From assembly GCA_951406725.2 (NCBI GenBank), contig OX597814.1:66960001-67024000 (forward strand): a stretch of 64,000 nt of DNA. Direction: 5' to 3'. Of this stretch, positions 13,217 to 30,845 are shown piece by piece (the first letter of the stretch is position 1; the number at the start of each line of letters is the position of its first letter). This stretch comes from Octopus vulgaris. Taxonomy: Eukaryota. The notes beneath the pieces are model-generated. The model was not told the origin of the DNA. It worked only from the letters and a program-made list of their open reading frames with translations, and ran no database searches. Position numbers and translations under genes: made by a program.

Positions 13217-13270
<54 letters not shown>

Positions 13271-13276
<6 letters not shown>

Positions 13277-13583
13277 CAAATATTATTAAGTTTGAAAACG
13301 GAGAGACCCAATGGATACAAAGTAATTTATGTATTAATTACTTAACATCTTCACCTATTCTTAGTATATTGGAATATTCCAACAGATCATAATATAATCT
13401 TTGTATTGTCCTTTTTCGTGCCCTGATGATTTTCCACCCAAGGTATTTTGAAATGCCAGATTATTTATTTATGTTTTGTAGTTAAAATTGGATGCGAAAT
13501 TGTAGGTGAATATGTTAATTAATTAATAAGTTAATTTGTATCCATTGGATCTCTTTGTTTTCAAACTTAATAATATTTGATAT
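13271..13583. repeat. (TA)n-adjacent fold-back unit, ~75-bp arms
   Basis: ATATCAAATATTATTAAGTTTGAAAAC...CCAATGGATACAAA pairs with TTTGTATCCATTGG...GTTTTCAAACTTAATAATATTTGATAT. Confidence 0.85.
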
Positions 13584-13710
13584 TTTCTGATATTTTATAT
13601 AATATTTTATATAATATTGAAGTAAGATCTTTTCAATATACAATATATTAAATCAATTAAATATATTAAATAGGTGCAGGAGTGGCTGTGTGGTAAGTAG
13701 CTTGCTAACC

Positions 13711-14903
13711 TCTGAACTGTTCAGACGTGTTATTTTGCTGCTCCAGATGTCACGTTGTTTCAACGTGAATTGTTGAACTTTTTGACTCGACTACAGGTAG
13801 GCGTGTTGTATTTTTGCGGGCGAAGTGAAGTTTTATTACTTGCATTAATGTCTTTTAGCACTTAATATTTTTAGCAGATAATAAAGCTCCACTTTGCTCC
13901 GGATGTAATTTTTCTGCCTGTTGTCGAGTGTAAAGAGAATTGTATTTTTAAAGCGGCGTAGTCCGTCTGCAAAAATTATTTTTGAAATTGTCGTTGTGTT
14001 ATCCACGGGATTTACCAAGGATTATTTTACCAAGGTGTTTTACCAACCGTGGAGAAGTTAATATCAGAGCCTCTCCCTGCCCCACCAATGGAGGGAGAGA
14101 AACAAAGTGAGGAGGGGGAAAATCCTCCTCCAAAAGAAAAAGAAAAGTGGGGAGCAATGGCGACCCACCAAAGGAATCGGAGGCTGCGGAAGAAAAGAGG
14201 ACCCGGTGCGTATAGCACCGGAACCTCAACCCCCGAGGCCCAGCGTAAAAAGAAAAAGAAAAAGAGGAACGGGACGCCACCAGCGGACTGTAACACCCAG
14301 ATGGCGTCTCCCATGTGTCCTCCGGCGGTTCTGATGCCGGAGAAATTTTATGTAGTCCTCTTCCATAAAGGAGGCACAGTAGAAAATGAAATAGGTAAGA
14401 TGAGGAAGAGAAACCAATGGGAGGGACTTCGGTCCTGCATGGAGTATCCCGAGTGGCCTTCGCAGCTGGCTGTGGAGGTCCTACTCGAAAATGATATGTG
14501 CAGGATCGAGAATTCTTTCCCGGAGGATCTCTTGCAAGTCATACCTGTATGCGGAAGCCTGACGACGGACGATTGCGTCATTAAAGCAAGAAAGTTCATC
14601 GGTCGGGTAACGTAAAATTGTAATTGTGTTACATTGTGACAGAGGTTTATTGCCTCTGAAAAGACTTTTAAAATTGTAAATTGGAAATTGGAATTTTTGT
14701 GAAAATTTTTGAATTTTTGTAATTTTTGAAATTTTGTAAATTATTGGAAAAAAAAAGAACATTGTTTTAGAGAAGCAAAAGTCGGCGGGCGCTTTCTAAC
14801 TTCTCCCATCACCATCTTCATCCACCACCACCATCATCCATTAATGTCTTTGTCCAGCCCGTAGCTACTCTGTGTGCTGCCCTAGTGGCAAATTATTGAA
14901 ATA
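13711..14903 (+). mobile_element. Non-autonomous single-ORF retroposon with 16-bp TSD
   Basis: AAGTAGCTTGCTAACC occurs at both 13695-13710 and 14904-14919. The 3' end is ...ATTGAAATAA(A). No TIRs, LTRs or RT. Confidence 0.88.
14049..14615 (+). CDS. Intact ORF of unknown function (188 aa from GTG, 175 aa from ATG 14088); possibly LINE ORF1p-like
   Basis: GC-rich open frame. The N-half is disordered with basic NLS-like tracts (RNRRLRKKR, RKKKKKKR). C-terminal motifs are conserved at protein level with the copy at 1951-2632. Confidence 0.7.
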   Translation: MEKLISEPLPAPPMEGEKQSEEGENPPPKEKEKWGAMATHQRNRRLRKKRGPGAYSTGTSTPEAQRKKKKKKRNGTPPADCNTQMASPMCPPAVLMPEKFYVVLFHKGGTVENEIGKMRKRNQWEGLRSCMEYPEWPSQLAVEVLLENDMCRIENSFPEDLLQVIPVCGSLTTDDCVIKARKFIGRVT

Positions 14904-15344
14904 AAGTAGCTTGCTAACCAACCACATGGTTCCGGGTTCACTCCCACTGCCGTAGCATCTTGGGCAAGTGTCTTCTGCTATAGCCTCGGGCCGACCAAAG
15001 CCTTGTGAGTGGATTTGGTAGACGGAAACTGAAAGAAGCCTGTCGTATATATGTATGTGTGTGTATATGTTTGTGTGTCTGTGTTTGTCCCTCTAGCATC
15101 GCTTGACAACTGATGCTGGTGTGTTTACGTCCCCGTCACTTAGCGGTTCGGCAAAAGAGGCCGATAGAATAAGTACTGGGCTTACAAAGAATAAGTCCCG
15201 GGGTCGATTTGCTCGACTAAAGGCGGTGCTTCAGCATGGCCGCAGTCAAATGACTGAAACAAGTAAAAAAAGAGAAAAGAGAAAGAGAGAGTGTATCTTG
15301 GGTAAAAATATCCCTAAAAGAGATCTAAATATTCTTACGGACGG

Positions 15345-30435: not shown

Positions 30436-30845
30436 AGCGCAAGCATGGCTGTGTGGTAAGAAGCTTCCTAACCACATGATTCCAGGTGCAGCCCCACTGC
30501 GCGCGGCACCTTGGGCAAGTATCTTCTACTGTAGCCTTAGGCCGACGAAAATCTTGTGAGTGAATTTAGTAGACGGACCTGAAAGAAACCTGTCACATGC
30601 ACATATCTATGTGTGTGTGTGTGTATGTGCGTATGTATGCGGGCACGTATGTGTTCCTCATTATCGCTTGACAACCGGTGTTGGTTTATTTACATCCACG
30701 TAGCTTAACGCTTCGACAAAAAGAAGTCGAAAGTACTAGGCTTAAAATAAAATAATAGTACTGGAGTCGATTCATTCGACTGAAAGTTCTTCAAAGTGGT
30801 ACCCCAGCATGACTGCAGCTTAATGCCTGGCACAGATAAAAGACA
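30436..30845 (+). mobile_element. SINE family A, older copy (partial copies at ~29665-29975 and ~31540-31730)
   Basis: Colinear with the split copy at 13672-15270. Confidence 0.88.

What the first reader, a model, noticed from the sequence alone, without database searches (positions are those of the whole stretch)
13695..14919. RT-less, single-ORF retroposon inserted in a SINE head: candidate undescribed family
Seen: a 1193-bp insert between exact 16-bp duplications (AAGTAGCTTGCTAACC) splits a SINE between its A and B boxes. It ends in AATAAA, has no TIR, LTR or RT, and carries one intact ORF. Established: long TSDs with A-rich ends indicate target-primed retrotransposition; HAL1 elements encode only an ORF1 protein; Tx1-clade LINEs often target multicopy small-RNA genes or other transposons. 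Inference: this is a protein-coding non-autonomous element that borrows a LINE RT and may use SINEs as landing sites, separating their pol III boxes. I do not recognise the family.
Basis: partly seen in the sequence, partly recalled or inferred. Interest (0 to 1): 0.82.

Follow-up and report, generated by a model that had tools for sequence, protein, structure and literature searches.

The report
SINE-targeting ORF1-only retroposon family, octopus
The insert is a broken copy of a multi-copy jumping-gene family, in a genome that is likely an octopus's, that encodes only one predicted RNA-binding protein, lands at one exact base inside a very common short repeat, and likely borrows its copying enzyme from a full-size retrotransposon found at the same base.

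Summary
The insert and the 16-nt repeats are real, but this copy is damaged. It is a unique internal deletion (about 857 nt, taking the start codon and zinc knuckle) of a ~2.05-kb family. Full copies encode one ~395-415-aa ORF1-type protein (two predicted RRMs, a CCHC knuckle, an extra C-terminal domain) under purifying selection (dN/dS 0.10-0.27, N-terminal half). At least 94 of the first 100 family 3' ends sit at the same base of the SINE head. A young APE-RT LINE of the L1/Tx1 group uses that base in 30 of 30 copies and shares a 3' hairpin, so it is the likely helper. The two stack in mixed head-to-tail arrays of up to 8 or more units inside one SINE. The repeat is not a plain 16-nt TSD: about 7-11 nt are duplicated target, and the rest of the upstream copy travels with the element. 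There is no poly(A) tail. ORF1-only LINE derivatives (HAL1, HeT-A, Ag-Sponge, TRE5-A.2) and Tx1 elements that target other transposons are known; this combination, aimed at a tRNA-type SINE, was not found in ten literature searches. Repbase and Dfam could not be checked.

The parts
13673..13694 (+). 5' head of the target SINE, with A-box-like motif at 13683-13693
   Evidence: same flank upstream of other copies; 66,274 exact uninterrupted heads in the genome; box consensus recalled
13695..13710 (+). Upstream copy of the 16-nt repeat: proximal ~7-11 nt duplicated target, distal part likely the element's own 5' end
   Evidence: variants and truncated copies
13711..14047 (+). 5' part of the element's 5' UTR (about 337 of ~570 nt)
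   Evidence: 92% identical to L003
14047..14050 (+). Junction of an ~857-nt internal deletion unique to this copy; removes the ATG, two predicted RRMs and the CCHC knuckle
14048..14615 (+). 3' remnant of the ORF1-type gene: basic low-complexity linker and C-terminal domain; three 1-nt losses near 14119, 14193, 14232
14616..14903 (+). 3' UTR, no poly(A) tail
14878..14890 (+). 4-bp-stem, 5-nt-loop hairpin shared with the autonomous LINEs; likely RT recognition signal
14904..14919 (+). Downstream copy of the repeat: the original SINE target sequence
14920..15270 (+). Remainder of the SINE, with B-box-like motif at 14935-14944
   Evidence: box consensus recalled

Best explanation
The window holds a dead, internally deleted copy of a ~2.05-kb ORF1-only retroposon family that sits at one base of a tRNA-type SINE head and is likely copied in trans by a site-specific APE-RT LINE of the L1/Tx1 group found at the same base. 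Shown: family structure, copy number in the hundreds, site specificity, coding constraint, the partner LINE, the shared 3' end, 5'-truncated copies, mixed arrays. Inferred steps: (1) the element is transcribed, probably by pol II, from a start inside the upstream copy of the target, so its RNA begins with a few target-like bases; (2) its protein (two predicted RRMs plus a CCHC knuckle) coats its own RNA; (3) the helper's ORF2 protein binds the 3' hairpin, its endonuclease nicks the bottom strand at the start of the repeat, and target-primed reverse transcription follows without a poly(A) tail; (4) the top strand is cut about 7-11 nt downstream and the cDNA end anneals there through the target-like bases (full-length copies) or through chance microhomology (truncated copies); (5) each full-length insertion rebuilds a usable site next to the SINE head, so later insertions stack into arrays.
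For: Specificity: 28 of 29 other top loci end at the same base; of 228 exact 3'-end matches 147 are followed by the first target bases; among the first 100, 71 are in that list and 24 of the other 29 are on target when read by eye, with one of the 71 (L105) matching 6 nt only. Helper: ORF2 of 1140 codons with endonuclease, RT and zf-RVT, best solved relative human L1 ORF2p, E 8e-66; 30 of 30 top copies end at the same site, median pairwise identity 99.6%. Shared 3' hairpin: 96.4% of 56 cells paired, 2 of 4 pairs with two-sided changes, 14 hand-picked ends. Protein: homologous to the LINE ORF1 profile, probability 99.85, 25% identity; N-terminal model pLDDT 81.7, 24 Foldseek hits at E<=0.001, the listed ones tandem-RRM proteins; dN/dS 0.10-0.27. 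TPRT hallmarks: 5'-truncated copies with 7-11-nt duplications (L087, L104, L106, L012, L112, L118, L120). Element-borne 5' bases: 24 of 56 full-length 5' junctions carry a 15- or 17-nt version of the repeat against 0 of 38 downstream copies (hand count); the 15-nt version occurs in 12 empty SINEs genome-wide against 66,274 of the usual forms.
Against: No retrotransposition, binding or cleavage was assayed. No run on record as RNA holds the element, so transcription start and expression are untested. Five of the first 100 3' ends are off target or match only partly (L107, L121, L124, L126, L128), plus L105 and L029. One subfamily sits in a second SINE variant (19 of the first 100) and no helper LINE in the same orientation was found beside five arrays checked, four of that variant. 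An abundant unrelated SINE ends in nearly the same hairpin yet is not site-specific, so the hairpin alone does not give targeting. The hairpin has only 4 pairs and the ends were chosen by hand. In array C the 17-nt version is shared by all junctions, so some variants are inherited from the locus rather than the RNA. Junction counts are hand counts from top-scoring or first-listed copies; no formal test was run. Many copies have frameshifts in homopolymer runs, which may be assembly errors.
Confidence: 0.87

Rival explanations
1. The elements spread mainly as passengers: one ancient insertion in a SINE was then copied as a composite SINE-element unit, or by segmental duplication, so the common site is inherited and not chosen each time.
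For: Nearly all copies have SINE sequence on both sides; arrays at different loci share unit order and 98.5-100% identical units.
Against: 5'-truncated copies start at different points yet have an intact SINE head upstream; nearly identical LINE copies (99.6%) sit in different SINE variants; several distinct subfamilies and LINE families use the site.
Confidence: 0.05
2. The ORF1-only elements and their arrays are real, but arrays grow mainly by template jumping, read-through transcripts or unequal recombination instead of repeated insertion at a rebuilt site.
For: Three arrays (B, C, D) end in the same second subfamily; adjacent units can be 99.9-100% identical (A1/A2, A4/A5).
Against: Units mix subfamilies and LINEs; C1 is closer to units of array A (99.4-99.8%) than to its neighbours (98.9-99.0%); the same sub-variant lies nearest the SINE head in arrays B and C, as expected from sequential addition at that end. 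This rival changes step 5 only.
Confidence: 0.25
3. The protein, not only the helper endonuclease, helps choose the site, for example by tethering to pol III factors on the SINE as TRE5-A ORF1p does with TFIIIB.
For: The target lies between the A and B boxes; one subfamily is tied to a second SINE variant; the protein keeps an extra C-terminal domain; precedent in PMC3159450 (passages seen).
Against: Base-precise junctions are what a sequence-specific endonuclease gives (PMC4494074); junctions inside arrays lack an upstream A box yet may be reused; the variant link could reflect age or a lost second helper.
Confidence: 0.12
4. It is a processed pseudogene or a DNA-level element (recombinase, transposase or Helitron type).
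For: No poly(A) tail; a short repeat between tandem units resembles a recombination core; a host-annotated Octopus sinensis gene model matches the protein at 60%.
Against: ORF1 homology, 5' truncations, the RT-bearing partner, and no recombinase or transposase family in any Pfam scan. The gene model is 281 aa, uncharacterized and plausibly an annotated copy of the element.
Confidence: 0.03

Closest known systems
HAL1 (half-L1) and the ORF1-present non-autonomous LINEs (HeT-A, HAL1, Ag-Sponge), as grouped in PMC5786205
   Same: Encodes only an ORF1-type protein, lacks RT, depends on a LINE in trans.
   Different: Those come from the L1, Jockey and CR1 clades; this one has an RRM-RRM-CCHC (type I) protein related to L1/Tx1-group LINEs, no poly(A) tail, and base-precise targeting of a SINE.
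Tx1-Mar LINEs and SINEU of crocodilians (PMC4494074); Tx1L in Tx1D of Xenopus (as cited there)
   Same: A Tx1-type LINE and a non-autonomous partner share a target inside another transposon; tandem copies sandwich one target duplication.
   Different: [quoted passage not shown]
HeT-A with TART/TAHRE (PMC5537684)
   Same: ORF1-only element and autonomous partner form mixed head-to-tail arrays; transcription may begin in upstream neighbouring sequence.
   Different: Telomeric, Jockey-derived, attached to chromosome ends; here arrays are interstitial, inside single SINE copies.
TRE5-A.2 of Dictyostelium (PMC3159450)
   Same: ORF2-deleted, ORF1-retaining, mobilised in trans, aimed at pol III units.
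   Different: A recent deletion derivative of its helper that inserts ~50 bp upstream of tRNA genes through TFIIIB; this family is deeply diverged from its helper (25% ORF1 identity) and inserts inside the pol III unit at a fixed base.

Membership tests
ORF1-present non-autonomous LINE | Single ORF homologous to a LINE ORF1 protein | tested here: met
ORF1-present non-autonomous LINE | No ORF2/RT in full-length copies bounded by target sequence | tested here: met
   ~2.0-2.25-kb units with one ORF
ORF1-present non-autonomous LINE | Multi-copy with retrotransposition hallmarks (fixed 3' end, 5' truncation, target duplication) | tested here: met
ORF1-present non-autonomous LINE | Mobilisation in trans by a LINE RT | not testable with these tools
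   inferred from shared site and 3' end
HAL1 (mammalian, L1-derived) | Encodes only ORF1p | tested here: met
   as above; definition from PMC5753468 passage
HAL1 (mammalian, L1-derived) | ORF1p of mammalian L1 type (Transposase_22, type II) | tested here: not met
   Pfam gives only zf-CCHC-type hits, at or near cut-off; model has two RRMs and a knuckle; types from PMC5203782 passages
HAL1 (mammalian, L1-derived) | 3' poly(A) tail (recalled) | tested here: not met
   3' ends join the target directly
Tx1 clade (helper LINE) | ORF2 with APE endonuclease, RT and C-terminal zinc motif, L1-group similarity | tested here: met
Tx1 clade (helper LINE) | ORF1 with RRM/CCHC domains | tested here: met
   CCHC; RRMs by alignment to the modelled family
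Tx1 clade (helper LINE) | Target-sequence preference | tested here: met
   30 of 30
Tx1 clade (helper LINE) | RT groups with named Tx1 elements in a tree | not testable with these tools
   no named Tx1 reference among listed hits
Simple deletion derivative of the helper LINE (TRE5-A.2 type) | Extended nucleotide identity with the helper in 5' part and ORF1 | tested here: not met
   (against L036 only); protein tree separates the family from three LINE ORF1s at 100/100
HeT-A-like telomeric elements | Located in telomeric arrays | tested here: not met
   most copies lie megabases inside contigs, within SINEs
Processed pseudogene | Poly(A) tail, random site, intron-bearing source gene | tested here: not met
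   no source gene among 150 scored protein matches was examined for introns, but the matches span the domain without breaks
Catalogued Repbase/Dfam family | Sequence match to a deposited consensus | not testable with these tools
   no such library here; the library of PMC13282606 (80 L1-Tx1 families) is on Zenodo and was not seen

The most novel reading that the evidence does not exclude
One base in an octopus SINE head is a shared niche for a small community of retroelements: at least two or three LINE families and two lineages of ORF1-only parasites that have co-existed long enough to diverge to 25% protein identity, rebuild their own landing site with target-mimicking bases carried on the RNA, and stack into HeT-A/TART-like arrays in the chromosome interior; the parasite's own protein, with its extra C-terminal domain, helps decide which SINE variant is hit.
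Probability: 0.25. Interest if true: 0.78.

Novelty: new variant of a known kind. Interest (0 to 1): 0.58.

Why it matters
It adds a SINE to the known targets of L1/Tx1-group LINEs and adds a site-specific member to the short list of ORF1-only retroposons. Because helper and parasite share site and 3' signal but have very different ORF1 proteins, the pair makes a long-standing question testable: why such elements keep ORF1 under selection (cis-acting RNA chaperone, boost to the helper, or targeting). A young, base-precise APE-type LINE with more than 66,000 harmless landing sites is also a candidate tool for gene insertion in octopus. The effect on the host SINE is probably small: hundreds of ORF1-only copies, plus an uncounted number of LINE copies, against at least 66,274 empty heads.

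Tried and rejected
Rfam scan of 13600-15300: six weak matches, none near a gathering score; no ribozyme. Fold of the 5' junction RNA: z -0.61, nothing special. ARAGORN: no tRNA in the window. First 3'-end pattern (356 matches) mostly hit an unrelated SINE and was replaced. First pair count used a structure off by one column, corrected. Full-length fold was poor (pLDDT 40.4); its C-terminal domain gave only ferredoxin-like matches, best Z 5.9, rmsd 3.6, 84 aligned, no Foldseek hit at E<=0.001, no Atlas hit: inconclusive. Sequencing runs: no RNA holder listed; contigs of four runs cover the element in short pieces and say nothing on expression or ends. No same-orientation helper LINE beside five arrays. 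Earlier scan findings: four look-ups, nothing. The HAL1 paper PMC2923044 is not held. The deep profile search of protein representatives was unavailable, so the family's range outside Octopus rests on one word-based search. A deduplicated statistical test of the junction counts was not done; hand counts stand in for it. Helitron, Penelope, Crypton/recombinase and Fanzor readings were considered and dropped for lack of any matching domain.

Full report
Observation. The window has exact 16-nt direct repeats at 13695-13710 and 14904-14919 around 1193 nt. They lie in the head of a SINE, between A-box-like and B-box-like motifs (consensus recalled); 66,274 exact uninterrupted heads of three variant forms occur in the genome. 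The insert has a 209-codon open frame with no Pfam match. The genome, G000, is 2.8 Gb; the only database relative of the family protein is an uncharacterized Octopus sinensis model (60% identity, 1 hit among 3,282 candidates), so the host is likely an Octopus. Octopus SINEs named OK, OR1 and OR2 are recalled, and PMC4758252 (passages) lists OR2 as a CORE SINE; I did not test which one this is.

The window copy is broken. A search with the insert alone gave 56 matches from 40 scored of 1,692 candidates. Other copies match in two pieces about 850 nt apart. Alignment to L003 and L006 shows that the window lacks about 857 nt at 14047/14048 and has three 1-nt losses that shift about 38 codons. The junction is found once in the genome and has no splice-site ends. 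Full copies are about 2.05 kb and carry one ORF of 393-415 codons with a CCHC knuckle.

The protein is an ORF1 under selection. A profile of 14 family proteins matches a profile of 6 ORF1 or ORF1-like proteins from neighbouring elements over 204 columns (probability 99.85, 25% identity). A model of the N-terminal 208 residues from a 12-row alignment has pLDDT 81.7; Foldseek gives 24 hits at E<=0.001, the listed ones tandem-RRM proteins, and the wide search ranks La RRM first (Z 9.3, rmsd 2.8, 83 aligned). RRM plus CCHC is the type I ORF1 layout, which PMC5203782 (passages) calls consistent with the Tx1 clade in non-mammalian animals. For 15 full-length intact ORFs chosen from 41 listed, 28 of 105 pairs were printed: dN/dS 0.10-0.27 for the N-terminal ~200 codons and 0.08-0.70 for the rest (pairs are not independent, several dS values exceed 1). 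A C-terminal domain of about 90 residues is conserved across subfamilies; its fold is unresolved. At least 150 N-terminal matches at 64% identity or more exist (150 scored of 11,084 candidates), and 228 exact matches to one 23-nt 3' pattern.

Site specificity. Of 29 other top loci, 28 end at the same base as the window copy; L029 has lost its last 12 nt. Of the 228 3'-pattern matches, 147 are followed by the first target bases. For the first 100 by position, 71 are in that list; I read the other 29: 19 lie at the same place in a second SINE variant, 5 in mutated targets of the main variant, 5 are off target or match only a few bases. One of the 71 (L105) matches 6 nt only, and I did not read downstream of all 71. 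So at least 94 of 100 carry the target motif. The second variant goes mostly with one subfamily, which looks older; no helper in the same orientation was found beside five arrays checked.

The helper. Downstream of several copies lie 5.4-5.7-kb LINEs that start and end at the same repeat. L036 has an ORF2 of 1140 codons with endonuclease, RT and zf-RVT domains; its best solved relative is human L1 ORF2p (E 8e-66), far ahead of R2. The 30 best copies of the L031 family, from 40 scored of 2,532 candidates, all end at the site; 29 of them are 99.6% identical at the median over 688 nt, so the family is young. LINE and ORF1-only element share little DNA apart from the last ~35 nt, which hold a 4-bp hairpin kept in 54 of 56 cells across 14 hand-picked ends, with two-sided changes in the two more distant LINE families. 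A protein tree sets the family apart from three LINE ORF1s on a long branch (100/100, unrooted), so it is an old lineage and not a recent deletion of these LINEs. Tx1 membership of the helper is likely but untested by phylogeny.

The repeat is not a plain TSD. 5'-truncated copies have only 7-11 nt duplicated, often with microhomology (L087, L104, L106, L012, L112, L118, L120). In full-length copies the upstream repeat often differs from the downstream one. By hand (67 rows, minus 3 duplicates, 3 irrelevant, 5 truncated), 24 of 56 upstream copies are 15 or 17 nt long, against 0 of 38 downstream copies that join the SINE remainder. The 15-nt form exists in 12 empty SINEs genome-wide. At L008, L020, L021, L025 and arrays A-C the distal bases of the upstream copy do not match the SINE variant that was hit. 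The simplest reading is a 7-11-nt true duplication plus target-like bases at the element's own 5' end. In the window the two happen to agree, giving an exact 16-mer. Against a purely RNA-borne origin: in array C all junctions share the 17-nt form while near-identical units elsewhere have 16, so part of the variation is copied from the resident site.

Arrays. At G000:C1:223.689-223.709 Mb one SINE holds seven ORF1-only units and a LINE; at C5:78.744-78.758 Mb seven units; at C7:13.464-13.494 Mb at least a dozen units of mixed families. Units are 98.5-100% alike within and between arrays, and the order of sub-variants in arrays B and C fits repeated addition at the SINE-head end; template jumping or recombination is not excluded. 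One 1.47-kb unit in the C7 array encodes a different ORF1-like protein that groups on the LINE side of the tree, which suggests a second ORF1-only lineage (one bounded copy seen).

Comparison with what is known. PMC5786205 (passages) lists HeT-A, HAL1 and Ag-Sponge as ORF1-bearing non-autonomous LINEs, from the Jockey, L1 and CR1 clades. PMC5753468 (passages) defines HAL1. PMC4494074 (parts 1-4 of 5 read) describes Tx1-Mar LINEs and non-coding SINEU sharing a Mariner target with tandem copies around one TSD. PMC3159450 (passages) describes TRE5-A.2; PMC5537684 (passages) the HeT-A/TART arrays. PMC13282606 (parts 1-2 of 3 and a supplement search) counts 80 L1-Tx1 families in O. vulgaris, 13 recently active, and in what I read does not mention targets or ORF1-only elements; its consensus library was not seen. 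PMC10294476 and PMC8967140 (passages) mention L1-Tx1 only as a class. Ten searches found no report of a SINE-targeting Tx1/ORF1-only pair; subscription journals, Repbase Reports and Dfam are outside the library.

Verdict. A real, previously unrecognised-looking family that works like HAL1/HeT-A but is not a member of either, paired with a young site-specific LINE. Each ingredient has precedent; the combination and the SINE target appear new. New variant of a known kind, interest 0.58.

Noticed in passing
L049-L077 (G000:C1, many places): A second abundant SINE ends in nearly the same 3' hairpin and flanking bases as the ORF1-only family, followed by a triplet-repeat tail, but is not site-specific; most of the 2,356 matches appear to be this SINE.
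   Followed up: no
L086, L089, L090, L092, L108-L134: A subfamily of the ORF1-only element sits in a second SINE variant on both flanks; target variant tracks element subfamily.
   Followed up: partly
L038:3707-4897 and L042:2583-3821: Mosaic ORFs: N-terminal half of one subfamily joined to the C-terminal half of another near the knuckle, pointing to recombination or template switching.
   Followed up: partly
L042 (G000:C4:80.137-80.141 Mb): Tandem 1.72-kb units with another ORF1-like CCHC protein, upstream of the SINE and not at the target site.
   Followed up: partly
L144:8371-9844: A 1.47-kb unit bounded by target repeats with a distinct ORF1-like protein: possible second ORF1-only lineage.
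   Followed up: partly
L145:4443-9450: A third LINE family inside the C7 array, ending at the target repeat with a variant hairpin; whether the family as a whole is site-specific is unknown.
   Followed up: partly
L007, L020, L021, L022, L029, L038 5' ends: Some copies have tandem duplications of 150-240 nt in the 5' UTR.
   Followed up: no
L024:240-310: A tRNA-like sequence (initiator Met by recall) lies just upstream of the target SINE.
   Followed up: no
window 13263-13593: Inverted repeat with 78-nt arms, 86% complementary, 175 nt apart, just upstream of the SINE; possibly a MITE-like element.
   Followed up: no
window 30458-30473: A two-mismatch match to the repeat, likely another SINE copy of the second variant.
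   Followed up: no
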